The position numbers were made by a program, and so were the translations under genes. Below the pieces are notes generated by a model. That model saw only the letters and a program-made list of their open reading frames with translations. It was not told the origin of the DNA and did no database searches. This document shows, piece after piece, positions 6,660 to 56,178 of a stretch of 64,000 bases of DNA (positions within the stretch are counted from its first letter, which is position 1; every line of letters begins with the position of its first letter). Origin of the DNA: a virus (taxonomy: Duplodnaviria > Heunggongvirae > Uroviricota > Caudoviricetes); IMG/VR virus record IMGVR_UViG_3300024273_002067; one strand, 5' to 3'.

Positions 6660-6673
6660 AAAAACTAAACAAC

Positions 6674-7039
6674 ATGGAAAACAAAACAATAACTCTTGAA
6701 GGAGTAGAGTACAAATTGGTACCAGTAGAAAAGATTGCAGAAAGTGAATCAGTAACATTTTATTATGCATGTGATAGTGATTGTGGTTACTTTGAGTTTA
6801 ATGTATTACTAAATGATGATGGTGAAATATGGGAAGATACACAATCAATAACCTATTATCCAGAAGGAGCTATCAATACAAACAATAGAGAGTACTGGGA
6901 TAACAATGATTTCTTACTTGATGTGTTAGAAGATAATGAAAATATTGAAGTAACAAATCTAAGAAAAGAAATTGGTGACCCTAAATTTATAAGCCTAATT
7001 AATATTTTACAAAAAGTTCATGAAAAAGGATGGATATAA
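6674..7039 (+). CDS. hypothetical acidic protein
   Basis: ORF. Confidence 0.4.
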   Translation: MENKTITLEGVEYKLVPVEKIAESESVTFYYACDSDCGYFEFNVLLNDDGEIWEDTQSITYYPEGAINTNNREYWDNNDFLLDVLEDNENIEVTNLRKEIGDPKFISLINILQKVHEKGWI

Positions 7040-7057
7040 ACAAATAAAACAAAACAA

Positions 7058-7444: not shown

Positions 7445-7623
7445 TTCTAAATCATTTAACTCCACAAGAAGTTTTTTTAAAAGAGGTAACTAAATGTCTA
7501 CAGAAAAACTTAGAGTTAAAAGCTGAGATTATAGAAAAAATAAATTCCACTTACGGTGGAGAAAAGTTAAGTTGGATTAAAAAATATAATGGACTCTTTA
7601 TTGAATTATACATACATAGATAA
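7441..7623 (+). CDS. hypothetical protein
   Basis: ORF; ATGA overlap. Confidence 0.35.
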   Translation: MILNHLTPQEVFLKEVTKCLQKNLELKAEIIEKINSTYGGEKLSWIKKYNGLFIELYIHR

Positions 7624-9489: not shown

Positions 9490-11157
9490 ATGAAATCAGC
9501 AGAATTCCTAACGAAAACAACATCAGAAAAAGAAATTTTCACGTATGAAGACTTTACACATGAGCAAGTAATGATGTATGAAGCAACTAAAGACTTTATT
9601 AACAAAACTATAATTCCTAATATTGAATCTATAGAAAAACAAGAAGGCACAATAGTTTCTGACATATTGAAACAGGCGGGCGAATTAGGACTTTTGGGAG
9701 TCACCGTACCCGAATCTCTAGGAGGCTTAAGCATGGACTTTAACACATCTATGTTAATAGCTGATATAATTGGAATATCTGGTTCATTTGGAACAACTTA
9801 TGGTGCGCACACTGGAATAGGTACTTTGCCTATTTTATACTATGGAAATAAAGTTCAGAAAGAGAAGTACATACCTAAATTAGCTACTGGTGAACTTGTT
9901 GGATGTTATTGCCTAACCGAACCTGGTGCTGGCAGTGATGCTAACGCTGGTAAAACTAGTGCAAAAAGAAGCAAGGACAAAAAAAGTTTTATAATAAATG
10001 GTCAAAAAATATGGATTAGCAATGGTGGATTTGCTGATATTATGATTGTTTTTGCAAAAATAGGAAAAGACAAAAACCACAGTGCATTTATTGTTGAATC
10101 AAAAACAAAAGGTATCACAATGGGGCCAGAAGAAGTTAAGTTAGGAATTAAAGGCTCTTCTACAAGACAAATATTTTATGAAAATGTAGAGGTTCCTTCT
10201 GAAAATTTACTAGGAAAAAGAGGTCAAGGATTTGAAATAGCTTTAAACATATTAAACATTGGCAGAATTAAGTTATGTGCATCTGCAATAGGAGGTGCCA
10301 AACAATTAATAACACAGTCAAAAGAATATGCAGAAGACAGGAAGCAGTTTGGAACTGAAATAAGAAACTTTGGCGCTATAAGAGAAAAGGTAGCTTTAAT
10401 GATGTCTAAGACGTTTGTTTCTGAAAGTTTAATGTATAGAGCTGGGCAGGACATTGAGTCAAGAGGAGCTTCGGTAGGCACAGTTAAAGCTACAAGTGAA
10501 TATGCTATAGAGTGTGCAATTGCAAAGGTGCATGGTTCTGAAGTTTTAGACTATGTTGTTGATGAGTCTTTGCAAATTCATGGTGGAATGGGTTATTCTG
10601 CTGAATTCCCAATAGAAAGGGCTTATAGAGACTCTAGAATAGCAAGAATATATGAAGGTACCAATGAAATAAATAGACTTATGTTAGTTGGACAATTTCT
10701 TAAAAAAATAAAAAACAAAGAGTTGTCAATCAACAAAAATGTTATTAAAGCCTATTCAAAAATAATAACCCCCTCACAACTAACTTGTTGCAGTGGCATT
10801 TCTCTAATTGAAAATCATAAAATTTTACTTGGATTCTTAGTTGCTAAAGTGTATAAGAAGTTTGGTAAAAACTTATTTAATCATCAACAGGTTGTTATGT
10901 GGATTGCGGATATTATAATAGAAATATATGCAAATGAAAGCGGTTTTTTAAGGTCTAAAAAGACTGGTTACTTGAGCCAAAAAGAAATGTCTAAACTATA
11001 CTTGTATGAATCAAATCAGCTTATAAATAAAGTTGCCACAAAAATAGTTGACTCATCGACCAGTGGTGTTGGTAGGTTTTTCGCTAAAAAAATAGTAAAT
11101 AAATTAACTAACCAGTCACACGAAAATAGAGAAGATTTAACAATTAAAATGTATTAA
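9490..11157 (+). CDS. Acyl-CoA dehydrogenase with an ~170-aa C-terminal extension
   Basis: CLTEPGAGSDA motif and FAD/ACAD fold regions. Confidence 0.8.
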   Translation: MKSAEFLTKTTSEKEIFTYEDFTHEQVMMYEATKDFINKTIIPNIESIEKQEGTIVSDILKQAGELGLLGVTVPESLGGLSMDFNTSMLIADIIGISGSFGTTYGAHTGIGTLPILYYGNKVQKEKYIPKLATGELVGCYCLTEPGAGSDANAGKTSAKRSKDKKSFIINGQKIWISNGGFADIMIVFAKIGKDKNHSAFIVESKTKGITMGPEEVKLGIKGSSTRQIFYENVEVPSENLLGKRGQGFEIALNILNIGRIKLCASAIGGAKQLITQSKEYAEDRKQFGTEIRNFGAIREKVALMMSKTFVSESLMYRAGQDIESRGASVGTVKATSEYAIECAIAKVHGSEVLDYVVDESLQIHGGMGYSAEFPIERAYRDSRIARIYEGTNEINRLMLVGQFLKKIKNKELSINKNVIKAYSKIITPSQLTCCSGISLIENHKILLGFLVAKVYKKFGKNLFNHQQVVMWIADIIIEIYANESGFLRSKKTGYLSQKEMSKLYLYESNQLINKVATKIVDSSTSGVGRFFAKKIVNKLTNQSHENREDLTIKMY

Positions 11158-12403: not shown

Positions 12404-12892
12404 ATGATAACAGATAAATACGTATTTTTTTGGAGTGGAATCTGCTCACAGTGGGCCGCTTCTGAATTTGAAATTGATGGACAAAAATATACTTGTGCAG
12501 AACAGTATATGATGTATAAAAAAGCTCTTCTTTTTGAAGATGAGGAAGTGGCAAATGCCATAATGAGAACCAATAGCCCAAAAGAACAAAAAGCTTTAGG
12601 AAGAAAAGTTAGAGGTTTTGACAAAGATAAGTGGGAAGAAGTTTGTAAAGAATATGTTTATGAAGCTAACTACGCTAAGTTCACGCAAAACCCACACATG
12701 CTTGAAGAGTTAAAAACTTATGGTGACAGAGAAATTGTTGAGAGTAGTCCAGAAGATTCTATTTGGGGCATTGGAATGCACGAAACTCATCCTGACATTC
12801 TTGACAAATCTAAGTGGCAGGGCCAAAATTGGCTTGGTGAAGCGATAATGCGAGTTAGAGATGAGTTATTAACTGAAAATGTAAACGGTTAA
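12404..12892 (+). CDS. NADAR (YbiA-like / DUF1768) domain protein
   Basis: Aligns along its length with E. coli YbiA (AEQYMMYKKALLF, SP...ALGRKV, AKF, WGIG). Confidence 0.7.
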   Translation: MITDKYVFFWSGICSQWAASEFEIDGQKYTCAEQYMMYKKALLFEDEEVANAIMRTNSPKEQKALGRKVRGFDKDKWEEVCKEYVYEANYAKFTQNPHMLEELKTYGDREIVESSPEDSIWGIGMHETHPDILDKSKWQGQNWLGEAIMRVRDELLTENVNG

Positions 12893-14465: not shown

Positions 14466-14999
14466 ATGAATATAATATCAACTGGCATAGAAGGGTTATT
14501 AGTAATTGAGCCAAGCATATTTGAAGATGAGAGGGGTTATTTTTATGAATCCTACAATAAAGAAAGGTTTGATTCTTTAGGTATATTTTCTGGCGCTTTT
14601 GTACAAGACAACCAAAGCAAGTCAAACAAAGGTGTGTTGAGAGGGTTACACTTTCAAAATGCTCCGTTTGCCCAGGGGAAACTTGTTAGAGTTATAAGCG
14701 GCTCAGTTTTAGATGTTGCTGTTGATTTGAGAAAGGATTCAAAAACTTATGGAAAGCATTTTTCTATTAAGTTAACTGGTGATAACAAAAAAATGTTCTG
14801 GGTTCCTGAGGGGTTTGCTCATGGATTTTCAACTCTGGAAGATGACACTATATTTTCTTATAAATGTACCAACTATTACCACAAGAACTCTGAAGGTTGT
14901 ATTTTGTGGAATGATTCTAACCTAAGTATAGATTGGGGCGTGTTAAATCCAATTGTTTCAGAAAAAGATAAAAACGGAATTAAATTTAGTGATTTTTAA
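14466..14999 (+). CDS. rfbC: dTDP-4-dehydrorhamnose 3,5-epimerase (RmlC, cupin)
   Basis: Aligns along its length with RfbC (FEDERGYF, VQDN.S.S.KGVLRGLHFQ, WVPEGFAHGF). Confidence 0.9.
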   Translation: MNIISTGIEGLLVIEPSIFEDERGYFYESYNKERFDSLGIFSGAFVQDNQSKSNKGVLRGLHFQNAPFAQGKLVRVISGSVLDVAVDLRKDSKTYGKHFSIKLTGDNKKMFWVPEGFAHGFSTLEDDTIFSYKCTNYYHKNSEGCILWNDSNLSIDWGVLNPIVSEKDKNGIKFSDF

Positions 15000-15811: not shown

Positions 15812-16906
15812 TTAGTTTTTTAAATTATAATAAGTCCAACTAAACTGTTCCATATCTATTCCACTTAACATTTCGCTTACCACTACAGCTGTGCCATAAT
15901 TTTCTTCAACATTTACATTTCCAAATAAAGAAATATAACCGACAGCATCCGCTCTAAAATGTGCTTGTGATAAACCATCGTAAATAACTTCAGAATTAAC
16001 AATTGTAAATGGAGCATTCCACTGGCCTTCGCCACCATCTATTTCAAAAGCGTGGTCAGTAGACAGACTAGGCACTATAAGAACATTGTCAATGTCTCCA
16101 CTGTAAGCCTGGTCAATGTCTATGCAGTCGTCACCAACATTCCATACTAATAAATTAGAACAATTGACATTTCCACCAAACCATTCTATGCCATCGTCTT
16201 GATTGGCAACCACTTCAATGTTGTTAATAGTTGTTAAATTTCCGACTCCAGCCAAAGTTAGTCCATTAATTTCATTACCCTCACCAATATTTGAGCCTCC
16301 ATGTCTTATCGAAACATAAGATAGAATACCGCTATTATCAAAATCATCAGCTCCGCCATATAAACCATTTTGGTCTGATGCAGGAATTCCTTCAATTTGT
16401 ATCGATTGCATATTCCCAGGTGCTGATATGGGTGCTTTTCCACATATTATAATACCACCCCACAATCCATAAATATTTTCATTTAAAGAATTTCCTATCA
16501 CCTGGCCCACCTGAATATCGTCTGCTATTGATGTGAAAATTATTGGTTGTTCTGGTGTTCCTTGAGCGTTAATCTTACCCCCTCTTGCCACAATTAAACA
16601 AGATGCATTAGCTCCCGTTCCTGCTTCTGCCTTTATAATTGTACCCGGCTCTATTGTTAGAGTGACTCCATCCACAACACTAACCCTACTTTGGATAATC
16701 CATATTTTGTCTGAAGTTAATGTTGTATTTGTTGTAATATTGCCAGTTATAGTATGTTCTGGAAATGTGTGTTCACAAGAGCCATCATTTTGTTCTGCAT
16801 GTTGATTGTAGTTGTTAGCAGTAGGGTCAGTGCATCCTTTTTTCTTACAAGAATATAGTGTTAACGAAGCTATAAATGCTAAAATTAATATTGTTGTTTT
16901 TTTCAT
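15812..16906 (-). CDS. Lipoprotein, right-handed beta-helix (pectate-lyase-like) repeat protein
   Basis: Lipobox LYSC; Flavobacteria-type CTDPTANNYN...DGSCEH motif; repetitive G/N-rich beta-helix. Confidence 0.55.
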   Translation of the reverse strand: MKKTTILILAFIASLTLYSCKKKGCTDPTANNYNQHAEQNDGSCEHTFPEHTITGNITTNTTLTSDKIWIIQSRVSVVDGVTLTIEPGTIIKAEAGTGANASCLIVARGGKINAQGTPEQPIIFTSIADDIQVGQVIGNSLNENIYGLWGGIIICGKAPISAPGNMQSIQIEGIPASDQNGLYGGADDFDNSGILSYVSIRHGGSNIGEGNEINGLTLAGVGNLTTINNIEVVANQDDGIEWFGGNVNCSNLLVWNVGDDCIDIDQAYSGDIDNVLIVPSLSTDHAFEIDGGEGQWNAPFTIVNSEVIYDGLSQAHFRADAVGYISLFGNVNVEENYGTAVVVSEMLSGIDMEQFSWTYYNLKN

Positions 16907-17069
16907 CTTTAGTTTTAATAATAAATAAAAGCAATAATTATTAATTTAGCGTTTTACTATTAACAAATTGTTACCATATCACAGTGTTATTGTTAATGTA
17001 GAATTTTTAAAAAAATAATATAAAAATATACTTTTTTTAACTTATTTATGTTTTCAAAAACAGACAAAA

Positions 17070-17369
17070 ATGAGTTTAAAAAAAATGAAAAAGGAGTATC
17101 GTGATACTTCAAAAAAAGAGATTGCAAAAGGTGTTGCTGAAAATTTTACATACGGCTTTTTGGGCTCGACATTAATCGTATTTATTTCTAGTGGAATAGA
17201 CATAGCAGTTCTGTTTAGCTATATGGTATACTACTTCTTTTTGGGAAGAGTTGTAAATAGACCCAAATACGTAACATCAATTGGTAAGTTTATAGTATTT
17301 CCAATACCAACATCAATAGGAGCATTTATTGGGTATAAATTAGCTAATTTTATTTCAGTATTCTTTTAA
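17070..17369 (+). CDS. membrane protein
   Basis: 2-3 TM segments. Confidence 0.4.
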   Translation: MSLKKMKKEYRDTSKKEIAKGVAENFTYGFLGSTLIVFISSGIDIAVLFSYMVYYFFLGRVVNRPKYVTSIGKFIVFPIPTSIGAFIGYKLANFISVFF

Positions 17370-17379
17370 TTATATATTT

Positions 17380-17946
17380 ATGGGTATGAATGAAATTTTA
17401 AAAAAAATTTACGAATCTTCAGCATACACTAAAGAAGTTAAGAACGAAACTGTTTTTAATGAAAATACAGTAGGAAGCCCAGTATACGGAGAAGTAACTC
17501 AAAGTGGCACTGAAGCTATAATAGATAAGTTTTCAGAATACTTTAATGTAGACACTGTATTTTATGACTTGGGCTCTGGATTAGGTAAAATGGTGGCTCA
17601 TGTTGGATTGACTGTGGGAGCAAAATCAATAGGTATAGAATACAGTAAAGAAAGACATGGTGGAGCAAGTGTGATGAAGGATAACTACATCCCAGATTGT
17701 GATAATGTATCATTCAAAAATGGAAATGTATTAGACTTTGACCTTTCCGATGCTACAGTTATATATATGGATAATACAGTTTTTCCAAAACACATAGATT
17801 TAGAAATATACAAAAAATTAAGTAGTGGCTGTCTAGTGTTGTATAAAAAGAAGTTAATTGGCATAGAAGAAGAACAGAACTTTCAAAGAGACTTAGTGGA
17901 CAGAACATATCATCAAAGAGGTTTATATTGGATGACTAAATCTTAA
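17380..17946 (+). CDS. Class I SAM-dependent methyltransferase, DOT1-like motif set
   Basis: FYDLGSGLGKMV...GIE and VIYMDNTVF resemble the DOT1 DLGSGVG and VIFVNNFAF motifs. Confidence 0.5.
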   Translation: MGMNEILKKIYESSAYTKEVKNETVFNENTVGSPVYGEVTQSGTEAIIDKFSEYFNVDTVFYDLGSGLGKMVAHVGLTVGAKSIGIEYSKERHGGASVMKDNYIPDCDNVSFKNGNVLDFDLSDATVIYMDNTVFPKHIDLEIYKKLSSGCLVLYKKKLIGIEEEQNFQRDLVDRTYHQRGLYWMTKS

Positions 17947-18474: not shown

Positions 18475-20091
18475 ATGAAAAAGATTATTATCAACTTATC
18501 ACTATTAGCATTAGGACTAATAATGTCAAACACCTTAACTGCTCAAGCGTCATCTGTATGGGCTACTGTTGAAAGTTTAGAAGCACTAAAACAAGACAAA
18601 AACTTTCAAGACTTACAACAAGAATTAAACTTAAAGTACGAACAAGCTTTATCATCTTCAAAAAAAGAACATTTACAAAAAGTTTATGAATTTAAATGTG
18701 AATGTGATGAAGTAGACCTTTATACATCAATGCACAAAATTAATTCAGTTAACAAAATTGAATATGGACCTAAATACGAAAGCTTATCAGAACCAAATGA
18801 CTATAATTCATTAAGCACAAACTCAAGTTGGCATCTAGATTTAATTAATGCTCAATTAGCTTGGCAATTTACACATGGAAATATTGACATTGCTATATCA
18901 GACCAAAACTACTTTGTAGAACATGAAGAGCTAATTGGTGCAGTATCTTACCATGACACCACCAACACCTCTTCTCAGACTCACGGTACTGCAGTAGCTA
19001 TAACAGCTGCAGGAAACACAAATAATGGCGTAGGTCTTTCTAGCATTGGATACAACTCAACTCTTTCGCTATATAGAATGAACTATGGAGAAGTTTTATC
19101 TGCTTCATATAATGGAGCTAAAGTAATAAACTTAAGCTGGACTAGTGGATGTGCCTATAACCAATATTTACAAGATGCAATAAATGAAGTTTACGAAAAT
19201 GGAACATTTATAGTGGCCGCAGCTGGTAATGGCTCTACATGTGGAGGCTCAGAAGCATTAGTTTATCCCGCTGCTTATGACAACGTATTTGCTGTGTCTA
19301 GCGTTGGAGAAAATGATTCTCACGAAAACCCAAACGGAGCCACTCATCAACACAACAGTTCTGTTGACATAATGGCTCCTGGGTATGATGTTCCGATAAG
19401 TGCCGCTCCAGGATGGTACCTATATGGTAGTGGAACTTCTTATGCGTCTCCAATGGTTGCTGGAACTGTGGGGCTTATGATTTCAGTTAATCCAGACATT
19501 ACAAATGAAGAAATAGAAACAATATTATCTCAAACAGCTTGGAACATTGATGAAGCAAACCCTAGTTACATTGGAAAAATGGGCTCTGGTAGGCTAGATG
19601 CAGGATATGCTGTTGCTCAAGTTCAAAGAAATTTAGATATTGCTGCTGCAAATGATAATAATGATGATGGGAATAATGGTCACGGAAATGATGAAGATGG
19701 TGTAGATGACACCAACCCAGGAAATGGGCACGGAAATTCAAACCCAAGTTATGAACATGCAAAACCATCAAAAGGAGACAATGTACATGTAGGCGATGTC
19801 GTAGATAATCCAAATGGAGGTTCGAACAATGTGCACAAATCATTTTCCGATGCTAGTATCAATAGGATAGTTGTATTTCCAAACCCTTCTCATGGAGACT
19901 TTAGAATAAAGTGGAAAGGAATGGATATGGAGCTTTTATATATTTACAATTCCAACTTTCAGATAGTACAAAGACATAGAGTGGAAATGTATAACCAAAT
20001 TAGCCTAACGCTATTACAGCCTGGTAATTACGTGGCAATGTTAGTGGATAGCAATGGAACTAGATATAGAAAGAGAATAATAATTTTTTAA
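18475..20091 (+). CDS. Secreted subtilisin-like (S8) serine peptidase with a T9SS C-terminal sorting domain
   Basis: Signal peptide; GTSYASPMVAG Ser motif and HGT His motif; C-terminal FPNPS... beta-sandwich tail. Confidence 0.75.
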   Translation: MKKIIINLSLLALGLIMSNTLTAQASSVWATVESLEALKQDKNFQDLQQELNLKYEQALSSSKKEHLQKVYEFKCECDEVDLYTSMHKINSVNKIEYGPKYESLSEPNDYNSLSTNSSWHLDLINAQLAWQFTHGNIDIAISDQNYFVEHEELIGAVSYHDTTNTSSQTHGTAVAITAAGNTNNGVGLSSIGYNSTLSLYRMNYGEVLSASYNGAKVINLSWTSGCAYNQYLQDAINEVYENGTFIVAAAGNGSTCGGSEALVYPAAYDNVFAVSSVGENDSHENPNGATHQHNSSVDIMAPGYDVPISAAPGWYLYGSGTSYASPMVAGTVGLMISVNPDITNEEIETILSQTAWNIDEANPSYIGKMGSGRLDAGYAVAQVQRNLDIAAANDNNDDGNNGHGNDEDGVDDTNPGNGHGNSNPSYEHAKPSKGDNVHVGDVVDNPNGGSNNVHKSFSDASINRIVVFPNPSHGDFRIKWKGMDMELLYIYNSNFQIVQRHRVEMYNQISLTLLQPGNYVAMLVDSNGTRYRKRIIIF

Positions 20092-20637: not shown

Positions 20638-21069
20638 ATGAATACTATTATACTATTTTCAATATATATATTATTTATAATTATATCTGGTGCATCTGAG
20701 GCTGTGATGGATAAAATTCAATTTCATTATAACAAATCTATCTTTTTACAATTTAAAAAACAGCTATTCTGGGACCCTAGCATGTCTTGGAAGAACAAAT
20801 ATAAAAATGGAGACCCTAAGCAAGGTTGTAAATTCATTTTCTCCACTACATACTTTGTTTTTGCCACTGATGCATGGCACTTATTTAAATTCCTAAAAAA
20901 CACATTCATATTTGCGTCAATTGGAATAGCAATGTATGCACAAACTTGTGCTTTAAAGGATTTTGATTTATCTAAAATTTTAACTATATTGCTATTTGTA
21001 ATATTAGGAAGAGCCTTTTACGGCTTATCTTTTAATTTATGTTTTGATAAAATATTAAAATCAGATTGA
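20638..21069 (+). CDS. membrane protein
   Basis: Multi-TM ORF. Confidence 0.4.
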   Translation: MNTIILFSIYILFIIISGASEAVMDKIQFHYNKSIFLQFKKQLFWDPSMSWKNKYKNGDPKQGCKFIFSTTYFVFATDAWHLFKFLKNTFIFASIGIAMYAQTCALKDFDLSKILTILLFVILGRAFYGLSFNLCFDKILKSD

Positions 21070-21458
21070 AACTATTTGTTAGTAATAAAATTGAAGTTAG
21101 AGATTCCAGCCTATCAGGAAGGGGTGTTTTTGCCAATAAAGATATAAAGGCGGGGGAAATATTAGAAGAATGTCATCATGTTATTTTAGAAAACACATTT
21201 AAAACTCAAGACCCCATGTTACAAACGTACATTTTCTCTTGGCCTAAAGGCTCTCACGGAGGGAAAAACTCATCTTCTGTAGTTCTGGGTATGGGCTCTA
21301 TATTTAACCACAGTGATAATAATAATGCTGATTGGGTCACAGATGAAATTAGGAACTTGTATTCATTTTATGCAATAAAAGACATAAAAAAAGATGAAGA
21401 GATATTTACTAATTATGGCATAATGTACAAAGATGTTGTGGGTACTAATAACAAATAA
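21066..21458 (+). CDS. SET-domain protein (lysine methyltransferase fold), minimal 130 aa
   Basis: GRGVFA, IFNHS.NNNA, EEIFTNYG motifs. Confidence 0.7.
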   Translation: MKLFVSNKIEVRDSSLSGRGVFANKDIKAGEILEECHHVILENTFKTQDPMLQTYIFSWPKGSHGGKNSSSVVLGMGSIFNHSDNNNADWVTDEIRNLYSFYAIKDIKKDEEIFTNYGIMYKDVVGTNNK

Positions 21459-22580: not shown

Positions 22581-23645
22581 CTATCTGTTATATATTTTTT
22601 CAGAAGAGCCATCTTGATACATTATGACTACTATACCCCTATAACTTCCATCAACCTCTTGCCCTGACAGGTTAAACCTTTTATATATTGACTTTTTTTG
22701 ATAGTTTCTTACAACAGATATTGGTCCAAAAGTTTCACTTTTACCATCATTATCATACTGAACAAGTCTGTAATAAGTTATTTCATTAAATCTATCGTCA
22801 GGATAATGATAATCTATTTTAGAAACACTATGTCCAGCAGCGCCTTGCACATTTATTACTGTCCAAATCTCGCCATCAGTTGAGCTTTCTACCATAAAGT
22901 AATCAGAGTTATACTCTGATTCTGTAGTCCAATTTATAAAATTATATTCATCAATAGGCTCAGCTTCAAAAGAAGACAGTTCAACTGGTAGAGATGTTGG
23001 AGACACTTCATAAAGTTCAAAATTATCCATCCACCACTCTTCCCCTGCTCTAGTGACTCTTGCGTAAACATCTATTGCAATCTGAGTAGGCCCCGCAGGA
23101 ACATAAAGTTCAATGTAAGAATAGCCATCTCCAGTACCATTTCTATCACCACCAGAGGAAGGTTGAAAAGTTGTTAAATAGCCTGTGGATATTTTTCCAG
23201 CAGTAGCTGTGGATGAATAGTCCCATGTCGCATTATTAAATCCTTTAACTCTTATTTCACTAACAAAACCTCCGCCATTCTTGCTTAGTTGAACATCTAT
23301 GTAATCACCACCATCTAAACCCGCAGTAGACGCTGTAGGGCTAGTTATTGTTTGAGCAGCTAATCGCATTCTAAATATATGGTCTTTACCGTTATCAACA
23401 GTTATGTTTGGGAGTGAATACCAATCTTCCTCCCTTGCATTGTTACCACCTCCATATATTACTGCACTAGAAGATGGAGATACTGATATATTATTAAAAT
23501 AACCTGTAGTAGCAGCTGGCGTCCACCATGCACCACTCCAGTCGAATGATTCAATATAGTCAGAAGCTATTAGAGTTTCCGTGTTTTGAGATTTTAAGGT
23601 GCTTACAAAAGTTAAAAATAGAGTAATTAAGATAAAGTTTTTCAT
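22581..23645 (-). CDS. Secreted beta-rich protein with a T9SS C-terminal sorting domain
   Basis: Signal peptide; C-terminal ...YYRLVQYDNDGKSETFGPISV... motif. Confidence 0.6.
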   Translation of the reverse strand: MKNFILITLFLTFVSTLKSQNTETLIASDYIESFDWSGAWWTPAATTGYFNNISVSPSSSAVIYGGGNNAREEDWYSLPNITVDNGKDHIFRMRLAAQTITSPTASTAGLDGGDYIDVQLSKNGGGFVSEIRVKGFNNATWDYSSTATAGKISTGYLTTFQPSSGGDRNGTGDGYSYIELYVPAGPTQIAIDVYARVTRAGEEWWMDNFELYEVSPTSLPVELSSFEAEPIDEYNFINWTTESEYNSDYFMVESSTDGEIWTVINVQGAAGHSVSKIDYHYPDDRFNEITYYRLVQYDNDGKSETFGPISVVRNYQKKSIYKRFNLSGQEVDGSYRGIVVIMYQDGSSEKIYNR

Positions 23646-23746: not shown

Positions 23747-24334
23747 ATGTCATTACATAAGAATCAAATAACATTATTGGGAACCATAGTCTTTGACCCG
23801 CTTGGAATGACTAAAAAACATGAAAAGCAATCTTCCTGGAAAAAGGTAGCTATGATTCACTTTGAAACACAAAAAGAGTATTGTGGTGGAATTTGTGAAT
23901 ACTATTCTTGGTTTATAAATAAACGTTTTAACATAGGACTATTAAAGCCAATAAGAGGTGCTCATGTCACTTTTATAAATGATAGAGAGGAAGACATAAT
24001 TAATGACTGGAGTTGTGTTAAGAACAAGTTTAACAACAAAAAAATAGAAATAACACTAAACGCAGAGCCAAGAACAGACTCGGCAGAATGCAAAGACTCA
24101 AGAATAACTCACAATTGGTGGCTAAATGTTTCAAATGAATCTAGATTAGAGATTCAGAAAATAAGAAATGAACTAGGATTGGGAGACCCGTTCTTTGGGC
24201 TACACATGACTATAGGTAGAGCGGAAAATTTTAAAGAAAATTCAAAAACTGGTGTGTTGAGGGCAAAAAAAATGAATGTAGAACAATCTATATACATTCA
24301 TAATTTAATTAAAAAAGGATTTATTAGATTTTAG
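23747..24334 (+). CDS. Putative 2H phosphoesterase (LigT-like)
   Basis: Two H-x-T-x motifs (GAHVTF and GLHMTI) about 80 aa apart. Confidence 0.4.
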   Translation: MSLHKNQITLLGTIVFDPLGMTKKHEKQSSWKKVAMIHFETQKEYCGGICEYYSWFINKRFNIGLLKPIRGAHVTFINDREEDIINDWSCVKNKFNNKKIEITLNAEPRTDSAECKDSRITHNWWLNVSNESRLEIQKIRNELGLGDPFFGLHMTIGRAENFKENSKTGVLRAKKMNVEQSIYIHNLIKKGFIRF

Positions 24335-24659
24335 AATAAAAAGGATTTTCACTTTCCTTTAATAATTTTAGGTTATCATCTATTTTCTTGCATTCTTTTT
24401 TAAAATTCACAACCCTATCTTCTGGCAATTCAAACCACTCTCTACCACCATCTGTAGAGTGAGACTTATATCCTCTGTGCAATATTGTTTCTATTTTTCT
24501 ATAATTTTCAGAAGAGTACGTCTTCAACAAAACCAACTCACCACTTGAGCCCGTTTGCAATTGTTTAAGTCGCTTACTGACATCACCCTTAGTTATGCCA
24601 ACCTTGAATCTATGTGGTTCTGAACTCCAATCTGTTATTAAATATATGCTACCCTTCAT
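24324..24659 (-). CDS. T5orf172 (MUG113 / GIY-YIG-like) domain protein
   Basis: IYLI...KVGIT...RLKQLQTG...LHRGY...GGREWFELPED pattern. Confidence 0.6.
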   Translation of the reverse strand: MKGSIYLITDWSSEPHRFKVGITKGDVSKRLKQLQTGSSGELVLLKTYSSENYRKIETILHRGYKSHSTDGGREWFELPEDRVVNFKKECKKIDDNLKLLKESENPFYSKI

Positions 24660-25085: not shown

Positions 25086-27206
25086 ATGAACTTCACAGAA
25101 GAGCAACTAACTGAACTTAATGTTTCTACAATAAAAAGAACCAGTGAAAACCAACTGACTTTAGAAGACTACTCTAACTCAAGACCTTCTTTATCTAAAA
25201 ACATAATTCAATTTAGAAATGGTTTTGTAAACCTTAAAGATTCTGGTTATGACAATTTACAGATTGCCATGAGTGTAGTTTCTGAATTGATGAATTTTGG
25301 GTACATAGTAAATCAAGATGGTATAGGAAACATATCTAGAGCTTCTAAAGAAGATATAGTAATATTTCATAATGAAGTTTTAGACTACATTAAAACAATG
25401 ACTGGTTCAGATAGGGATTATCAACCTTTTTGGCCTAACTTTCCTGAAAGTGTAATGAATAAAAGTGAAGCAGAACTTTGGATTCACCAAATTATACATT
25501 ACAGCTCAAATGGTACATATATACCTAACGAATTAACAAGAAGGTCAAGAACAGCATTTGAACACGCTAACTATACGACTTTAGACTCTGGTGATGATGT
25601 TATGTTTTCCAACATTTTTACAAATTTAGTTTCTGTTAATGGAAGCTTAAGCCCAGATGACAAAGATGTAGTTCAGTGGTTTGTTGATAGTGATTGGAAA
25701 TTGAATCTTCCAAACCAAATACCTTTTAAGGAAACATTATGCTTTTTGGTAAGTATAGGGGTTAAATGTGAAATAAAAACGGTTACCGATGTTTTAAGGG
25801 TGGCAGTTTATATGTCTGGTGGTGACATTAGCCTTCGTAAAAACACTAAAAACAAAACTCTTTTCAAGAAGTTTAAAAGGTCTGAAAGAAAAATGATTCT
25901 ATCACTTTTAGAATCAACAAGGTGTGACGAATCAGAAGCGGTACTTAAACTTTCTAAATGGATTAGGTTAGGAGAGATATTACATCCAGGTGAATATAAA
26001 AACAAATTCCCAAAATCTTTTAATATGTTTAAAAGACTAAGGAATGATAAAGTTATTTCTTGGAATGCTAGTGTAGATAAGGAATTTAAAAAAGACTTGG
26101 AAAGTGGCTTAAAAAAGCTTTCAGAAAGACCTGGGGAATTCTTTAGGAGAATAGATGCTTTGGTAAGAAAAAATACTAATCAAATAGATAAGATATTGAC
26201 TTACATCAAAAGTGTTGGAACAAAAGTTTCAAATAAAGTTTTGTTTGAGACTTATGAACACTTTGGAAAAAGAGCTAATAAAAGTGATTTCAGAAGTATA
26301 ACACTTTCTGGTAGTAGAAGCAACTTTTCTTTACCCACTCTTGAGAAGCTGTCTGAATACGCTGTAAATTCAATACAAAAAAGTATTAAAGACTCTTTAA
26401 GGGTAAAATTTAAAGAACTTCCAAAAATGTCTAATGTTTGGATTGATGAAGAGCTTAAAAATATTCCTATGCCTAAAAACATGAGGTCAGTAAGTTCGTC
26501 TTTGGTTCCAATAATAAGAGGTGAAAGAATTAAAGTTAAAAATAAAGACGCAAAAGTTGTTAGAGCCTTTGTTCACTGGTTTGATGAGCGTGGAAATCAA
26601 GATTTAGATTTAACTGCTATATTCATAGGCGACAATAAAGTGGAGCACATTGGATGGAATGGTGGTCACAGCTCTATCTTAGGATGCTACTCTGGGGATG
26701 TGAGACATAAGAAAGGTGCTTGTGCTGAATATATAGACATTAAAGTAGATAAAGCATTAGCTAATGGCTACAAGTATGTTGTAATGGATGTCAGGAATTA
26801 TAATAATACTGGGTTTAACTCATTGCCTCAGTGTGTTGGAGGCTGTATGGAAAGAGAAGATGCGGTTAAAGGAGAGGTTTGGCTTCCAAAAACCATAGAG
26901 GGTTCTATGAGGCTTCAGTCAGAGTCAAACTCTACCATTATGTTTGTTTTTGACTTGGAGAAAATGGAATATATAATTCTAGACGTTGATTCTATAGGAA
27001 ATGTCGCTTCATCAAATTTTCAAGAAATTTCAAACTCTATAAGAGAATATTGTGAGCCGCCTGTATTTTCAGTCTATGACTTAATTGTGATGCACGTAGA
27101 TGCTAGAGGTGGTAAGATATCTAAAAAGGAAGATGCCAATAACACTTTTGATTTTAAAGACTTCAGAGGTTCTTATGTTGAAACTTTAAAACTAATGGGA
27201 GTATGA
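25086..27206 (+). CDS. Large protein with a TerD-like C-terminal domain
   Basis: The last ~170 aa (DLDLTAIF...GD..H...YIDIKVD...YVVMDVRNY...STIMFVFDL) resemble the TerD beta-sandwich; the N-terminal 500 aa are unrecognised. Confidence 0.4.
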   Translation: MNFTEEQLTELNVSTIKRTSENQLTLEDYSNSRPSLSKNIIQFRNGFVNLKDSGYDNLQIAMSVVSELMNFGYIVNQDGIGNISRASKEDIVIFHNEVLDYIKTMTGSDRDYQPFWPNFPESVMNKSEAELWIHQIIHYSSNGTYIPNELTRRSRTAFEHANYTTLDSGDDVMFSNIFTNLVSVNGSLSPDDKDVVQWFVDSDWKLNLPNQIPFKETLCFLVSIGVKCEIKTVTDVLRVAVYMSGGDISLRKNTKNKTLFKKFKRSERKMILSLLESTRCDESEAVLKLSKWIRLGEILHPGEYKNKFPKSFNMFKRLRNDKVISWNASVDKEFKKDLESGLKKLSERPGEFFRRIDALVRKNTNQIDKILTYIKSVGTKVSNKVLFETYEHFGKRANKSDFRSITLSGSRSNFSLPTLEKLSEYAVNSIQKSIKDSLRVKFKELPKMSNVWIDEELKNIPMPKNMRSVSSSLVPIIRGERIKVKNKDAKVVRAFVHWFDERGNQDLDLTAIFIGDNKVEHIGWNGGHSSILGCYSGDVRHKKGACAEYIDIKVDKALANGYKYVVMDVRNYNNTGFNSLPQCVGGCMEREDAVKGEVWLPKTIEGSMRLQSESNSTIMFVFDLEKMEYIILDVDSIGNVASSNFQEISNSIREYCEPPVFSVYDLIVMHVDARGGKISKKEDANNTFDFKDFRGSYVETLKLMGV

Positions 27207-27440: not shown

Positions 27441-27830
27441 ATGAAACATATAACTACGCATCCAATTAAAAAGTCAGACTTAGGTTTCCACGGAAATCTA
27501 TTCGGTGGAAAATTATTGGCGTGGATGGACGCTGCAGCTGCTGGCTTTGCATCAGAAGTTTGTGACACCCCCAGAATGGTAACAAAGGCAATTGACAAAT
27601 GTATATTTAGCAAACCTGGTAAAGAAGGTCAGTTACTTAAAATATATGGAGAAGTAGAACATATAGGAAGAACAAGTTTAACTGTTAATTTAGAAGCAAG
27701 AAGTCATAGCGTTTATGATGGTCACCAAACCGTTATGCTATCAACTAAAATGGTTTTTGTAAGAATAGATGAACAAGGTGATGCAATACCAATTTCAGAA
27801 AGAGTAAAAGAGAAGTATGAAACTAAGTAG
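27441..27830 (+). CDS. Acyl-CoA thioesterase (hotdog fold, YciA/BFIT-like)
   Basis: HGNLFGGKLLAWMD motif. Confidence 0.7.
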   Translation: MKHITTHPIKKSDLGFHGNLFGGKLLAWMDAAAAGFASEVCDTPRMVTKAIDKCIFSKPGKEGQLLKIYGEVEHIGRTSLTVNLEARSHSVYDGHQTVMLSTKMVFVRIDEQGDAIPISERVKEKYETK

Positions 27831-33454: not shown

Positions 33455-34249
33455 ATGAGAACGTTAATTTTAATAATATCCGCATCCCTTTTTGCTGGAT
33501 GTGGTGGAGAAGATTTAACAAACACATCTAACAAGGAGGTCATTCGGATAATAGAAGACTTTGGTTTTGTTGGATTAAATGAGAATGAAATAATAGAGGC
33601 GTTAAACACACCTAAGAGTTCTATAGATGACAACCCGCCCTGTTATAACATAGAGGACTTGTCTGCTTTCTTGACTCATTTTGGTTCTTGCGCTAAAGAT
33701 ATTATTCCAACATTATCTAACGACTACTTTCAAGATGCAAATTGTAATGTCGCTAAATGGGAATCTTCAGCAAGAGAGTTCAATCCTATTGACTCAACAG
33801 GTGTCAATACTAATCTCAACCCTATGTCTATAAAGTGGTTTCTAGATTCAGATAATTATATAAATACAGGCTCTGATTTTACGCTACCATTTTACACTTA
33901 TAATGATGGCGTTATAAATTCTGATTGCGATGGAATATTCCAACCCAGTTGTAATGGTGCGCATAGTGTAGTTATTCAAATGGAATTTGAAGATGGCACT
34001 ATCTACAGAAGAATCGGAACAGGTTTCGCTAGTGTTAATAATACACCTTCAGATATTCCGCAGTGCGAATTAAGCATTTTAGATTATAGCCCTAGTGACT
34101 TAAGTCATTTCGACTTTGATACATTTACACCTATAAAATTTGAACCTTATGAATTTATAATTCAAGGTCTAGAGTGGGACTTAGATAATGATGACTGCGT
34201 TTCCACTAGCGATTTAAACCTATTCCTGATAGGCTTCGGTGATTGTTAA
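33455..34249 (+). CDS. Lipoprotein with two dockerin-like Ca-binding repeats
   Basis: LFAGCGG lipobox; DLSAFLTHFGSC and DLNLFLIGFGDC repeats. Confidence 0.45.
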   Translation: MRTLILIISASLFAGCGGEDLTNTSNKEVIRIIEDFGFVGLNENEIIEALNTPKSSIDDNPPCYNIEDLSAFLTHFGSCAKDIIPTLSNDYFQDANCNVAKWESSAREFNPIDSTGVNTNLNPMSIKWFLDSDNYINTGSDFTLPFYTYNDGVINSDCDGIFQPSCNGAHSVVIQMEFEDGTIYRRIGTGFASVNNTPSDIPQCELSILDYSPSDLSHFDFDTFTPIKFEPYEFIIQGLEWDLDNDDCVSTSDLNLFLIGFGDC

Positions 34250-54683: not shown

Positions 54684-55196
54684 CTAATTATCCTGACCTG
54701 AAGTTTCTTCAATTATTTCACCTATAATATCCATCCAAAGTATTGTAGCCCAATCCTCAGCACTTTTTTCCCAAGGTCTATCATCGTATGGTATATATTC
54801 TGTTATACGTTCTCCTAGCCAATATTTTGGGTTTTGACACAAATCTCCATTTGCCATATCTATTACGTGACCCATCTCATTAAGTAATGTCCAGACTCTA
54901 GACACTTTTTCTGTAAGACTTTCATTTATAGATATTTGATAAACATTTTCTGAATACTGATATGTAATACCTTTTATTAGATACTCTAATGGTTCATTAC
55001 CATTTAACAATACAAAAACATTTGTATCGCATATATACTTTTTTAGAACCCTATCTGCCACCTCTACCTCAAATGAAGGTGTAGAAAAGTGAGGTATTAA
55101 TTTTTGAGAGTTAATATAATTACTAAATAATAAAAATATTATAATAAAAAAATTAATATTTTTATTATTTAAACTTTGTATATATTTAGATTTCAT
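54684..55196 (-). CDS. secreted hypothetical protein
   Basis: Signal peptide. Confidence 0.4.
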   Translation of the reverse strand: MKSKYIQSLNNKNINFFIIIFLLFSNYINSQKLIPHFSTPSFEVEVADRVLKKYICDTNVFVLLNGNEPLEYLIKGITYQYSENVYQISINESLTEKVSRVWTLLNEMGHVIDMANGDLCQNPKYWLGERITEYIPYDDRPWEKSAEDWATILWMDIIGEIIEETSGQDN

Positions 55197-55203: not shown

Positions 55204-56178
55204 TTATTCTATAATAATTTTTTTACTATAAAGTATATTTTTTGAAGTAGCCACAACCAAGTAGGTGCCTGCAGATAAGTGGTCAGTTTTATCAATGGCA
55301 ATCAAATGCTCTCTACAATCTATAACTTCTATTTTAGAGTAAACTTCATTTCCTCTTACATCTCTAAGAACAACTAAAATTTCTTGTCTACCTATACAAT
55401 TAACATCCTTAAATAGAATATTAATACAATCACCTCTCTTTAATGGAGTTGGGTATATGTCCATTACACCATCTCCATTGGGAGCATGTTCAACAGGAAT
55501 AATATTAAACGTCTCTTGCTCACCATTAAAATCTACCTGCGTAAGCCTATAGTAAGACAATCCTCTTAGTGGGTTACTGTCAATTTCAAAGTAGTTAATT
55601 ATATTGACACTGTTGCCTGCTCCTTTTGTTTCAATTGTAATTTTCCAATCTATTGCATCTTGACTTTTCTCTACAATGAAGTAATCGTTATTAATCTCAG
55701 AAGCAGTTGACCATGATATCTCAACAATGTTTTCATTTACAACAGCATTAAATTCTATTAATTTAATGGGTAAAAATCCGCCATTACTTACAGTGGCTGG
55801 GCCTGTTAGAGGTGGGTCGTTCCCGCTCCACCAAGTATTAGAGCCAATATTTAATCTAGAACCTGAGTTGCCCCCAGTTAGTGTCCCTCCAGCATATACC
55901 TGAACTACACCATCACTATCTAAATTTATTTTTCTTCCATTACTAAATAACATCGTTCCATAAACCTCAATCCTCATGTTAACATAGGTAGGACTATTTA
56001 AATCAATTACAACAGACATTGAAGCGGGTATTCGCATTGTATCTCCTGTATTTGCAGGTACATAACCACAATCCCACGAAGCAGCACTACTCCAGTCACC
56101 ACCATCGTCAATTAAAGTACATATAGCAGAACTAGTAAGTGTAAGTGATAATAAAAATAGTAATAGTAAGTTTTTCAT
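55204..56178 (-). CDS. Secreted protein with a T9SS C-terminal sorting domain (start re-called to MKNLLLL)
   Basis: Signal peptide; C-terminal LSYYRLTQVDFNGEQETF motif. Confidence 0.55.
   Translation of the reverse strand: MKNLLLLFLLSLTLTSSAICTLIDDGGDWSSAASWDCGYVPANTGDTMRIPASMSVVIDLNSPTYVNMRIEVYGTMLFSNGRKINLDSDGVVQVYAGGTLTGGNSGSRLNIGSNTWWSGNDPPLTGPATVSNGGFLPIKLIEFNAVVNENIVEISWSTASEINNDYFIVEKSQDAIDWKITIETKGAGNSVNIINYFEIDSNPLRGLSYYRLTQVDFNGEQETFNIIPVEHAPNGDGVMDIYPTPLKRGDCINILFKDVNCIGRQEILVVLRDVRGNEVYSKIEVIDCREHLIAIDKTDHLSAGTYLVVATSKNILYSKKIIIE

What the first reader, a model, noticed from the sequence alone, without database searches (positions are those of the whole stretch)
18475..20091. Three secreted proteins with type IX secretion C-terminal domains, including a subtilisin
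The S8 peptidase (18475..20091) and two beta-rich proteins (22581..23645 and 55204..56178) end in the T9SS CTD pattern (FPNPS..., YYRL.Q.D..G..ETF...V). A beta-helix lipoprotein (15812..16906) and a dockerin-repeat lipoprotein (33455..34249) carry Flavobacteria-style lipoboxes. If the element is a phage, it exports its own cargo through the host T9SS during infection. Possible roles are host surface remodelling, superinfection exclusion or degradation of a surface polysaccharide/protein layer. Together with the TTTG/TAnnTTTG promoters, these features also pin the host to T9SS-bearing Bacteroidota.
Basis: partly seen in the sequence, partly recalled or inferred. Interest (0 to 1): 0.55.

Follow-up and report, generated by a model that had tools for sequence, protein, structure and literature searches.

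The report
Huge-phage genes for T9SS-secreted proteins
A very large virus of marine Flavobacteria-type bacteria carries host-derived genes for a protease and two binding proteins that have the address tags of the host's type IX secretion system. The virus therefore probably makes the infected cell export viral proteins. One earlier paper reported this for a different phage; here it appears as a conserved gene module.

Summary

- **Subtilase (18475-20091).** It is an intact S8 peptidase with a signal peptide and a type A T9SS C-terminal domain (CTD). It scores 24.8 bits on TIGR04183 against a cutoff of 23.
- **55204-56178.** It scores 19.6 bits, below the cutoff. Its orthologues pass, and its modelled C-terminus superposes best on solved T9SS CTDs.
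- **22581-23645.** It has no canonical CTD. It ends in a ~35-residue tail that keeps only the last CTD motifs.
- **YYRL...ETF motif.** It belongs to an Fn3-like domain upstream of the tag, not to the CTD.

The window is not a bacterial chromosome. It is syntenic with a 390-kb contig. Its S8 falls in a clade of phage S8 genes, and in 26 IMG/VR contigs those genes lie directly downstream of the major head protein gene. That clade nests within multi-copy S8+CTD genes of Flavobacteriales (Crocinitomicaceae and relatives). No capsid or terminase gene was seen in the window itself.

Most likely mechanism: Sec export, then host T9SS export of an active protease and adhesin-like partners. The biological purpose is unresolved.

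Phage-encoded T9SS cargo was reported once before (Bellas 2020). The short tail, found on both phage and bacterial exoproteins, is the newest element.

The parts
18475..20091 (+). Secreted subtilase (S8) precursor, 538 aa: signal peptide, conserved N-terminal region, catalytic domain, G/N/D-rich linker, type A T9SS CTD.
   Evidence: The catalytic residues D143, H170, S322 and the oxyanion N252 are invariant in 16 homologues. Four Cys are also invariant (C75, C77, C226, C256).
18475..18549 (+). Sec signal peptide of the S8 (aa 1-25, MKKIIINLSLLALGLIMSNTLTAQA).
   Evidence: Hydrophobicity heuristic. It is conserved across the family and in 29 of 30 phage homologues. No SignalP-type predictor was available.
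18838..19599 (+). Subtilisin-like catalytic domain (aa 122-375).
   Evidence: Pfam PF00082 at 1.2e-27. phmmer matches subtilisin DY and Carlsberg at about 2e-20 over aa 129-367.
19873..20088 (+). Type A T9SS C-terminal sorting domain of the S8 (aa 467-538), with FPNPS, GNYVAM and RKRIIIF motifs.
   Evidence: TIGR04183 24.8 bits against cutoff 23. Best PDB sequence hit is the NucA CTD 8glk_D, E 0.003. A CTD HMM built here gives 1.7e-15.
22581..23645 (-). Secreted adhesin/CBM-like protein, 354 aa: signal peptide, jelly-roll domain, Fn3-like domain, short C-terminal tail. It is the conserved neighbour of the S8 gene in related phages.
23001..23588 (-). Jelly-roll binding domain (aa ~20-215).
22710..22997 (-). 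Fn3-like domain that carries the YYRL.Q.D..G..ETF motif (aa ~217-312).
22584..22697 (-). Short C-terminal tail (aa 317-354, ...KRFNLSGQEVDGSYRGIVVIMYQDGSSEKIYNR): candidate minimal sorting tag.
   Evidence: Tail HMM 7.9e-17. hhalign to the S8-type short tail gives prob 87.6%, E 3.5e-6. Four homologues have a full CTD at this position. The same tail sits at the extreme C-terminus of bacterial exoproteins.
55204..56178 (-). Secreted G8/beta-helix-like + Fn3-like + type A CTD protein, 324 aa (ATG start at 56178).
55207..55458 (-). Type A T9SS CTD of that protein (aa 241-324).
54684..55196 (-). 170-aa ORF 8 nt downstream of the CTD protein, with a signal-peptide-like N-terminus. Possibly co-expressed exported protein of unknown function.
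   Evidence: No Pfam or NCBIfam match.
15812..16906 (-). Beta-helix protein with a lipoprotein-type N-terminus (…LTLYSC).
   Evidence: PF28492 Beta_helix_4, precomputed. N-terminus. It is conserved at 74% identity in the 390-kb relative.
33455..34249 (+). 264-aa protein with a lipoprotein-type N-terminus (…LFAGCGGED). The 'dockerin' assignment is not supported.
   Evidence: No Pfam or NCBIfam family at E<=1.

Best explanation
The window is part of a very large (about 390 kb) phage of marine Flavobacteriales. It carries host-derived genes for exported proteins:
- an active subtilisin-like protease;
- a CBM/adhesin-like + Fn3 protein;
- a G8/beta-helix + Fn3 protein.

Each has a Sec signal peptide, so it should cross the inner membrane. 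The protease and the G8 protein end in a type A T9SS sorting domain. The host SprA/PorV translocon should recognise that domain, carry the protein across the outer membrane, and allow the tag to be removed. The third protein ends in a ~35-residue tail that keeps only the distal CTD motifs (GxY... and K...). I read this tail as a reduced version of the same tag.

Outside the cell the protease cuts proteins, and the two non-catalytic proteins bind surface or polymer targets.

What is shown:
- the domain architecture;
- an intact catalytic triad;
- conserved cysteines;
- CTD identity by HMM and by fold;
- a phage lineage for the S8;
- Flavobacteriales origin.

What is inferred:
- actual T9SS-dependent export;
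- the purpose.

I favour shaving or remodelling of the infected cell's protein surface late in infection, which would destroy receptors and protect progeny. The alternative, almost as likely, is an auxiliary exo-protease that keeps amino acids flowing to the infected cell.
For: Architecture and enzyme.
- S8 HMM, invariant triad D143/H170/S322 and N252, and four invariant Cys.
- Signal peptides.

CTD.
- TIGR04183 scores 24.8 bits for the S8.
- The best PDB sequence hit is a CTD caught inside the T9SS translocon.

Phage identity.
- 27 window ORFs are syntenic with a 390,165-bp contig.
- 34 IMG/VR contigs carry S8 at 50-61% identity.
- In 26 of them the S8 directly follows the major head protein gene (phrog_138, 8.6e-67).
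- The window holds typical large-phage genes: TK, ThyA, intein/LAGLIDADG, T5orf172, S21, PDF, ClpP, DnaJ.
- There are no tRNA genes.

Host origin.
- 80 loci in Flavobacteriales MAGs share only the S8 (47-60% identity). 60 of 73 of these S8 genes carry a full CTD. There are several copies per 1.9-2.2 Mb scaffold.
- In an NJ tree the phage S8s form one clade nested among them.

Conserved module.
- The S8 and a tail-bearing partner are neighbours in L003, L005 and 17 IMG/VR loci.

Short tail as a tag.
- It is always at the extreme C-terminus, on proteins with signal peptides.
- It occurs on several different passengers in phages and in bacteria, including extracellular PHA-depolymerase-like esterases.
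- It alternates with a full CTD within both families.
- Its best NCBIfam hit is TIGR04183, but weakly.
- The literature reports that the last 22 aa of a CTD suffice for secretion (PMC10202324).

Precedent: Bellas 2020.
Against: - No capsid, portal or terminase gene was found in the window or in the loci of its closest relatives. Not every small ORF was scanned.
- The 706-aa 'jumbo-phage' protein also occurs on megaplasmids.
- The S8 CTD only just passes TIGR04183 and just misses the Pfam gathering score. Protein 3 is below the cutoff on its own.
- Most phage S8 relatives have lost the proximal CTD, which could mean decay of the signal rather than a mini-tag. Short tail against full CTD gives hhalign prob of only 46%.
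- F. johnsoniae work that I recall from memory found that longer CTD regions were needed for secretion.
- The host is unknown, so the presence of a T9SS in the host is inferred.
- Nothing here discriminates between the proposed biological roles, except gene position next to the head gene in relatives. That position does not hold in this window.
Confidence: 0.68

Rival explanations
1. The proteins are exported only to the periplasm. The CTD in this lineage is a decaying relic, as the truncated tails of most relatives would suggest. On this reading the protease works inside the envelope, for example by cutting outer-membrane or peptidoglycan tethers to help lysis at the end of infection.
For: - 108 of 120 S8 homologues lack the proximal CTD.
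- CTD scores are borderline in the window.
- In 26 relatives the S8 is co-oriented with, and directly downstream of, the major head protein gene. That is late-gene territory.
- The CTD is less conserved than the catalytic domain among close relatives: 38-61% against 75-90%.
Against: - The window's clade keeps all CTD motifs, and its best PDB match is a translocon-bound CTD.
- The tails keep motifs D and E, and always sit at the extreme C-terminus on unrelated passengers, including bacterial extracellular esterases.
- Both families swap between tail and full CTD.
Confidence: 0.14
2. The element is not a phage. It would be a giant plasmid or another extrachromosomal element of a Flavobacteriales bacterium, and the three genes would be ordinary bacterial T9SS cargo.
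For: - There are no structural phage genes in 64 kb.
- PcfJ-like, topoisomerase and SSB genes (42-50 kb) are common on conjugative elements.
- The 706-aa protein has homologues on megaplasmids.
Against: - The S8 is nested in a clade whose members sit beside a major head protein gene on IMG/VR contigs.
- A 310-kb IMG/VR contig holds a 45% homologue of the 706-aa protein.
- The window has arrays of tiny co-oriented ORFs, an intein/homing endonuclease, T5orf172, S21, NAMPT/NMNAT, TK, ThyA and PDF.
- No replication, partition or conjugation genes were seen.
Confidence: 0.08
3. The window is a stretch of bacterial chromosome or an integrated host island.
For: - Several genes are host-like: ClpB, ClpP, DnaJ, topoisomerase, acyl-CoA dehydrogenase.
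- S8+CTD homologues are chromosomal in Flavobacteriales.
Against: - An exact 41-mer is absent from GTDB genomes.
- Bacterial loci share only the S8 with the window, at <=60% identity and with higher GC.
- There are no tRNA or rRNA genes.
- About 100 mostly unknown small ORFs.
- Synteny is with a 390-kb contig whose name suffix '_c' may mark it as circular. This was not verified.
Confidence: 0.03
4. The C-terminal beta-sandwich domains are Ig-like decoration or binding modules of virion proteins, not secretion tags.
For: - Ig-like and Fn3 domains are common on phage structural proteins.
- The S8 is next to the head gene in relatives.
Against: - All of these proteins have cleavable-looking Sec signal peptides, which would remove them from the cytoplasm where virions assemble.
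- The closest sequence and fold matches are specifically T9SS CTDs.
- Cellular homologues are named as T9SS cargo by NCBI.
Confidence: 0.03

Closest known systems
Phage-encoded T9SS cargo of 'Cryophage' (Bellas et al. 2020, Nat Commun, PMC7468147)
   Same: A phage of a Bacteroidota host encodes proteins with type A T9SS sorting domains. They are presumed to use the host system. Cargo content varies between related genomes: here the 390-kb relative has an extra 414-aa CTD gene that the window lacks.
   Different: - Their cargo was an endoglucanase, a GH39 and a PA14 protein in a cryoconite phage, and it was called a unique occurrence.
- Here the cargo is an S8 protease plus two non-catalytic binding proteins, in huge marine phages.
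- The protease is conserved across many phage lineages rather than being a flexible island gene.
- Many copies carry a truncated tail.
T9SS-secreted subtilases of Bacteroidota, e.g. mirolase of Tannerella forsythia (CTD structure 8qb1)
   Same: The architecture is the same: signal peptide, N-terminal region, S8 catalytic domain and type A CTD. The mirolase CTD is the top structural match to the CTD of the window's G8 protein.
   Different: - Mirolase is a chromosomal virulence or nutritional protease.
- Sequence similarity to the window's S8 was not compared directly.
- The phage enzyme has a conserved G/N/D-rich linker and four invariant cysteines.
Multi-copy S8+CTD paralogues of Crocinitomicaceae, Parvicellaceae, Cryomorphaceae and UBA952 (Flavobacteriales MAGs)
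   Same: They show 47-60% identity over the whole protein, with the same signal peptide, N-terminal region and CTD. They are the probable source of the phage gene.
   Different: - They are chromosomal, with higher GC and often 700+ aa with extra domains.
- None of 73 has the S8-type short tail.
- Their neighbours are bacterial genes.
Gingipain proteinase-adhesin complexes of Porphyromonas gingivalis
   Different: - Gingipains are cysteine proteases, and their adhesin domains are part of the same polyprotein.
- Here the protease is a serine protease and the adhesin-like protein is a separate gene.
- No evidence of complex formation was obtained.
Subtilisin-like proteases of Bacillus jumbo and large phages (Kirov, Izhevsk and others)
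   Same: They are S8 catalytic domains encoded by large phages.
   Different: They show only about 29-32% identity over half the protein. They belong to Gram-positive hosts, with no T9SS tag. Their function is also unknown.

Membership tests
T9SS type A cargo (TIGR04183 / PF18962) | N-terminal Sec signal peptide | tested here: met
   A positive n-region, a hydrophobic core and an AQA/SQ-type end are present in all three proteins. The feature is conserved in homologues. This rests on a heuristic only; no SignalP was available.
T9SS type A cargo (TIGR04183 / PF18962) | C-terminal domain scoring above the curated HMM cutoff | tested here: inconclusive
   - S8: TIGR04183 24.8 against 23 (met); PF18962 26.0 against 27 (just missed).
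- 55204-56178: 19.6 against 23 (not met), but orthologues score 25.1, 24.0 and 23.4 and a huge-phage homologue scores 32.7.
- 22581-23645: no match.
T9SS type A cargo (TIGR04183 / PF18962) | Conserved motifs B (PNP), D (GxY) and E (K near the C-terminus) | tested here: met
   - S8: FPNPS, GNYVAM, RKRIIIF.
- 55204: YPTP, GTYLVV, SKKIIIE.
- 22581: only D/E-like residues remain (RGIVVIMY, EKIYNR), so the feature is not met for that protein.
T9SS type A cargo (TIGR04183 / PF18962) | Seven-stranded Ig-like beta-sandwich fold | tested here: met
- The S8 CTD was not modelled.
- The tail of 22581 has only 3 strands.
T9SS type A cargo (TIGR04183 / PF18962) | Producer cell has a T9SS | not testable with these tools
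   The host is unknown. Indirect evidence: the nearest cellular homologues are in Flavobacteriales MAGs, and 99 ORFs in about 1.1 Mb of flanks from those loci matched the CTD HMM.
T9SS type A cargo (TIGR04183 / PF18962) | T9SS-dependent secretion and removal of the CTD by PorU | not testable with these tools
   This needs an experiment.
Peptidase S8 (subtilases) | S8 fold with the Asp-His-Ser triad in that order, plus an oxyanion Asn | tested here: met
   PF00082 at 1.2e-27. D143, H170, S322 and N252 are invariant in the alignment. phmmer matches subtilisins at about 2e-20.
Peptidase S8 (subtilases) | N-terminal I9-type propeptide | tested here: not met
   No Inhibitor_I9 match. A conserved ~95-aa N-terminal region with two invariant Cys exists, but its nature is unknown.
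Tailed jumbo phage | Virion hallmark genes (major capsid, portal, terminase) | tested here: not met
   - None was found among the window ORFs scanned or in L002, L003 and L005.
- The 'terminase' PHROG hits of 31577-33427 cover the intein/LAGLIDADG part only.
- The feature is met in relatives: the major head protein gene is next to S8 in 26 IMG/VR contigs.
Tailed jumbo phage | Genome larger than 200 kb | tested here: inconclusive
   The window is 64 kb. The syntenic relative is a 390,165-bp contig. Other S8-bearing contigs are 151-310 kb.
Dockerin (PF00404) | Paired EF-hand-like Ca-binding repeats matching the dockerin HMM | tested here: not met
   No Pfam family at E<=1 for 33455-34249. By eye there is only one D-x-D-x-D-like segment.

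The most novel reading that the evidence does not exclude
The ~35-residue C-terminal tail (consensus ..[IV].Y.[DN]L.G[QKR]E[VI]......G.[VIY].[IV].Y.DG....K[IV]..) may be an undescribed minimal T9SS sorting signal that keeps only CTD motifs D and E. On this reading it is used by Flavobacteriales exoenzymes and by a module conserved across large aquatic phages: a secreted S8 protease plus an adhesin-like partner, often placed right after the head gene. Phages would use that module late in infection to strip or remodel the protein surface of the infected cell.
Probability: 0.25. Interest if true: 0.7.

Novelty: new member of a known kind. Interest (0 to 1): 0.52.

Why it matters
- **Viruses using a bacterial secretion system.** If phages of marine Flavobacteriales routinely send their own proteases and binding proteins through the host T9SS, infected cells change their surface or their surroundings before they lyse. 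That bears on superinfection, on loss of progeny to cell debris, and on protein turnover in the ocean, where these bacteria are major degraders of polymers.
- **A host marker.** CTD-tagged genes give a simple host marker for uncultured huge phages.
- **Signal recognition.** The short tail, if functional, would give a natural minimal T9SS tag. That would be useful for understanding signal recognition and for secretion engineering.

Tried and rejected
- **Exact 41-mer of the S8 gene** in IMG/VR and in GTDB genomes: no match. The source contig was not found there.
- **Single-protein IMG/VR scan with the S8:** nothing. The alignment-based scan worked.
- **The 706-aa protein (phrog_33734) as a phage marker:** rejected after it also hit megaplasmids, annotated as TerD family.
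- **Whole-genome comparison with the published huge phage LR756500.1:** only 11 of 103 window ORFs are shared, so it is not a close relative.
- **PHROG scans of large ORFs in L002, L003 and L005:** no structural genes.
- **Walking off the window's left end:** only arrays of tiny ORFs were found.
- **tblastn of the 941-aa ORF against phage genomes:** no match.
- **'Terminase' PHROG hits of 31577-33427:** rejected, because they coincide with the LAGLIDADG/intein segment.
- **S8 as a prohead protease:** considered because of its position next to the head gene. Rejected because of the conserved signal peptide and CTD.
- **Dockerin annotation:** no support.
- **hhalign of the 22581-type tail against full CTDs:** no meaningful alignment (prob 1.8%). 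The link to the CTD runs only through the S8-type tail and through domain swapping within families.
Full report
**What is in the sequence**

The window has about 31% GC and no tRNA genes. It holds about 100 ORFs, most of them small and co-oriented.

**The subtilase (18475-20091)**

The ORF encodes a 538-aa protein.
- It matches Pfam Peptidase_S8 at 1.2e-27, and it matches subtilisins in the PDB at about 2e-20.
- In an alignment of 16 homologues, the catalytic Asp143, His170 and Ser322 and the oxyanion Asn252 are invariant. So are four cysteines. Invariant cysteines fit an oxidising, extracytoplasmic location.
- The N-terminus (MKKIIINLSLLALGLIMSNTLTAQA) looks like a Sec signal peptide by a hydrophobicity heuristic.
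- The last 72 residues score 24.8 bits on TIGR04183 (cutoff 23). They score 26.0 on PF18962 (gathering score 27).
- The best PDB sequence match of the last 83 residues is the CTD of the F. johnsoniae substrate NucA, as seen in the T9SS translocon complex. It aligns end to end (8glk_D, E 0.003).

**The other two proteins**

55204-56178 (324 aa from the ATG) has four parts: a signal peptide, a G8-like beta-helix segment (PF10162, 7.9e-8), an Fn3-like domain and a C-terminal domain.
- The C-terminal domain scores only 19.6 bits on TIGR04183.
- Orthologues at 85-89% identity pass the cutoff with 25.1 and 24.0 bits. A homologue in the published 462-kb phage LR756500.1 scores 32.7 bits.

22581-23645 (354 aa) has a signal peptide and three further parts.
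- The same Fn3-like domain follows.
- A three-strand tail of about 35 residues ends the protein.
- No CTD model matches it.

**Phage or host?**

The window does not map to a bacterial chromosome.
- A 41-mer from the S8 gene has no exact match in one genome per GTDB species.
- Eighty Flavobacteriales loci found with the S8 alignment share nothing else with the window, and their GC is higher.

Several results point to a very large phage.
- 27 window ORFs between 15.8 and 35 kb are syntenic, at 52-94% identity, with a 390,165-bp contig.
- Other S8-bearing contigs are 151-310 kb. They carry DNA polymerase A, RNR, GroEL/ES, queuosine genes and an M15 peptidase.
- 34 IMG/VR contigs encode S8 proteins at 50-61% identity.
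- In 26 of them the gene directly upstream on the same strand matches the major head protein family phrog_138 at 8.6e-67.
- The window itself carries genes typical of large aquatic phages:
  - thymidylate synthase and thymidine kinase;
  - GMP reductase/IMPDH;
  - an intein with LAGLIDADG, and T5orf172;
  - peptide deformylase and ribosomal protein S21;
  - two ClpP, a ClpB-like ATPase and DnaJ;
  - just beyond its end, NUDIX, NMNAT and NAMPT.

There are caveats.
- I found no capsid, portal or terminase gene in the window, or in the loci of its closest relatives.
- One protein I first took as a jumbo-phage marker also occurs on megaplasmids.
- I therefore keep a giant non-viral element as a minor rival.

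**Origin and host**

The S8 family is abundant in MAGs of Crocinitomicaceae (including Lishizhenia, Crocinitomix and Fluviicola), Parvicellaceae, Cryomorphaceae and UBA952.
- There are several copies on single 1.9-2.2 Mb scaffolds.
- 60 of 73 of these bacterial proteins end in a full type A CTD.
- In a neighbour-joining tree of the catalytic domain, all phage S8s form one clade nested among the bacterial ones. The tree has no bootstrap, so the internal order is uncertain.
- Cellular homologues of the G8 protein are named 'T9SS type A sorting domain-containing protein' in Flavobacteriales and Vicingaceae MAGs.
- TAnnTTTG is enriched upstream of window ORFs: 18 observed against 5.3 +/- 2.3.

Together this supports a T9SS-bearing Flavobacteriales host and capture of host cargo genes by the phage.

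**A conserved module and a short tail**

The S8 gene has a tail-bearing partner gene next to it in L003, L005 and 17 IMG/VR loci. The partner is 311-923 aa. In the window the two genes are 2.5 kb apart.

Most phage S8s (108 of the 120 best hits) lack the proximal CTD. They end in 'vYDMsGkkVnLe.apsGMYLvV.nG.v..KivK'.
- This tail is related to the tail of the partner family (hhalign prob 87.6%, E 3.5e-6). It is only weakly related to full CTDs (prob 46%).
- Its best NCBIfam hit is nevertheless TIGR04183, at 13-14 bits.
- One S8 tail (L095/L096) hits both tail models.
- In both families a minority of members carry a full CTD at the same position.
- In IMG/VR loci, 29 of 30 and 16 of 17 tail-bearing ORFs have signal peptides. 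The tail is always at the extreme C-terminus.
- The partner-type tail also ends bacterial proteins next to chromosomal S8 genes. These are choice-of-anchor-J plus extracellular PHA-depolymerase-like esterases, and proteins of about 315 aa that I take to be LamG-like from their sequence alone. All have signal peptides.
- A review reports that the last 22 residues of the HBP35 CTD, which cover motifs D and E, suffice to secrete GFP (PMC10202324).

The tail therefore behaves like a sorting tag, possibly a minimal CTD. This is inference.

**Mechanism**

Shown:
- the architecture of signal peptide, passenger and tag;
- an intact protease;
- the CTD fold;
- the phage lineage of the S8;
- the host origin.

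Inferred from established T9SS biology:
- Sec export;
- recognition of the CTD by the SprA/PorV translocon, powered by GldLM;
- release or surface attachment after removal of the tag.

The purpose is open, and two readings remain.
- Surface shaving. The position of S8 orthologues right after the head gene suggests late expression. The constant pairing with an adhesin-like protein points the same way. From my own knowledge, T9SS-delivered surface adhesins are common receptors of Flavobacteriia phages. This makes surface shaving attractive, as receptor destruction or protection of progeny.
- Nutrient supply. The host paralogues are probably nutritional exoproteases. In this window the gene sits among metabolic genes, so an auxiliary nutrient-supply role is about as likely.

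**Comparison with what is known, and novelty**

Bellas et al. 2020 reported T9SS-tagged proteins in a cryoconite phage and called this a unique occurrence. The tagged proteins were an endoglucanase, a GH39 and a PA14 protein.

A paper on large aquatic 'moraphages' with Flavobacteriia hosts does not mention T9SS. Whether this window belongs to that lineage was not tested.

The present case adds four things:
- a different cargo, a protease with adhesin-like partners;
- presence in huge marine phages, including an unannotated gene in LR756500.1;
- conservation across many phage lineages;
- the short tail.

I rate it a new member of a known kind, with a moderately interesting open question attached.

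Noticed in passing
window 22584-22697 (-); also L015 5866-7728, L028 5890-7764, L069 6850-7806, L047 5319-6263; L090-L122: A ~35-aa C-terminal tail has no Pfam or NCBIfam model. It ends unrelated signal-peptide proteins in both large phages and Flavobacteriales chromosomes, including extracellular PHA-depolymerase-like esterases. In two families it alternates with full T9SS CTDs.
   Followed up: partly
L090-L121 (e.g. L091 3003-4877 head protein, 5986-7449 S8): In 26 IMG/VR contigs the secreted S8 gene lies directly downstream of, and co-oriented with, the major head protein gene (phrog_138). L090 and L091 also have a 230-aa signal-peptide protein with the same short tail between the two genes.
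   Followed up: partly
window 17380-17946 (+) and 21066-21458 (+): DOT1-like and SET-domain methyltransferase genes flank the S8 gene. These domains are best known from eukaryotic histone methylation. Both are conserved in the 390-kb relative.
   Followed up: no
window 56237-56422 (-): A 61-aa ribosomal protein S21 gene (PF01165) lies immediately upstream of the G8/CTD gene on the same strand.
   Followed up: no
window 38075-38968 (+), 39284-39847 (+), 40649-41209 (+), 57807-62293 (-): There is a dense set of protein-processing and proteostasis genes: a rhomboid intramembrane protease with a Bacteroidota-type DUF6576 tail, two ClpP genes, peptide deformylase, DnaJ and a ClpB/ClpA-like ATPase.
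   Followed up: no
L009 16871-18115 (-) versus window 16907-17379: The 390-kb relative has an extra 414-aa gene with a T9SS CTD (TIGR04183 25.7 bits) between the beta-helix and DOT1 genes. The window lacks it, so cargo content varies between close relatives.
   Followed up: partly
window 31577-33427 (+); 24324-24659 (-); L141 7220-9591: Selfish elements are present. One is an intein-like LAGLIDADG insert inside a 616-aa exonuclease-like gene. Another is a T5orf172 gene. In relatives, the thymidylate synthase gene is split by a DUF7487 ORF.
   Followed up: no
window 1610-2344 (+): A GH16 glycoside hydrolase (2.7e-15) has no signal peptide, unlike the other envelope-directed proteins of the window.
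   Followed up: no
window 25086-27206 (+): A 706-aa protein (phrog_33734, 5.5e-72) is shared with jumbo phages (XacN1, Xoo-sp13, SCTP-2). It is shared equally well with megaplasmids, where it is annotated as TerD family or RING finger family 4.
   Followed up: partly
window 50064-52889 (+): The largest ORF (941 aa) has no Pfam match above threshold, no PHROG match and no phage-genome match. It shows only a faint sigma-70 region 2 signal.
   Followed up: partly
window 19630-19872 (+): The G/N/D-rich linker between the protease and the CTD contains a motif (DGNNGHGND..G.D..NPG) conserved in both full-CTD and short-tail S8 proteins. Its role is unknown.
   Followed up: no
window 9490-11157 (+), 27441-27830 (+), 12404-12892 (+), 14466-14999 (+): Metabolic genes unusual for a phage are present: acyl-CoA dehydrogenase, a 4HBT thioesterase, NADAR, and dTDP-4-dehydrorhamnose 3,5-epimerase.
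   Followed up: no
window 42252-49929 (-): A block on the minus strand holds a type IA topoisomerase, SSB and a PcfJ-like protein. This combination is more familiar from conjugative elements.
   Followed up: no
window-wide; e.g. 22 nt upstream of 23645: TAnnTTTG (the Bacteroidota -7 element) occurs upstream of 16 of 103 ORFs: 18 sites against 5.3 +/- 2.3 in shuffles. It is present before the 22581-23645 gene but not clearly before the S8 gene.
   Followed up: partly
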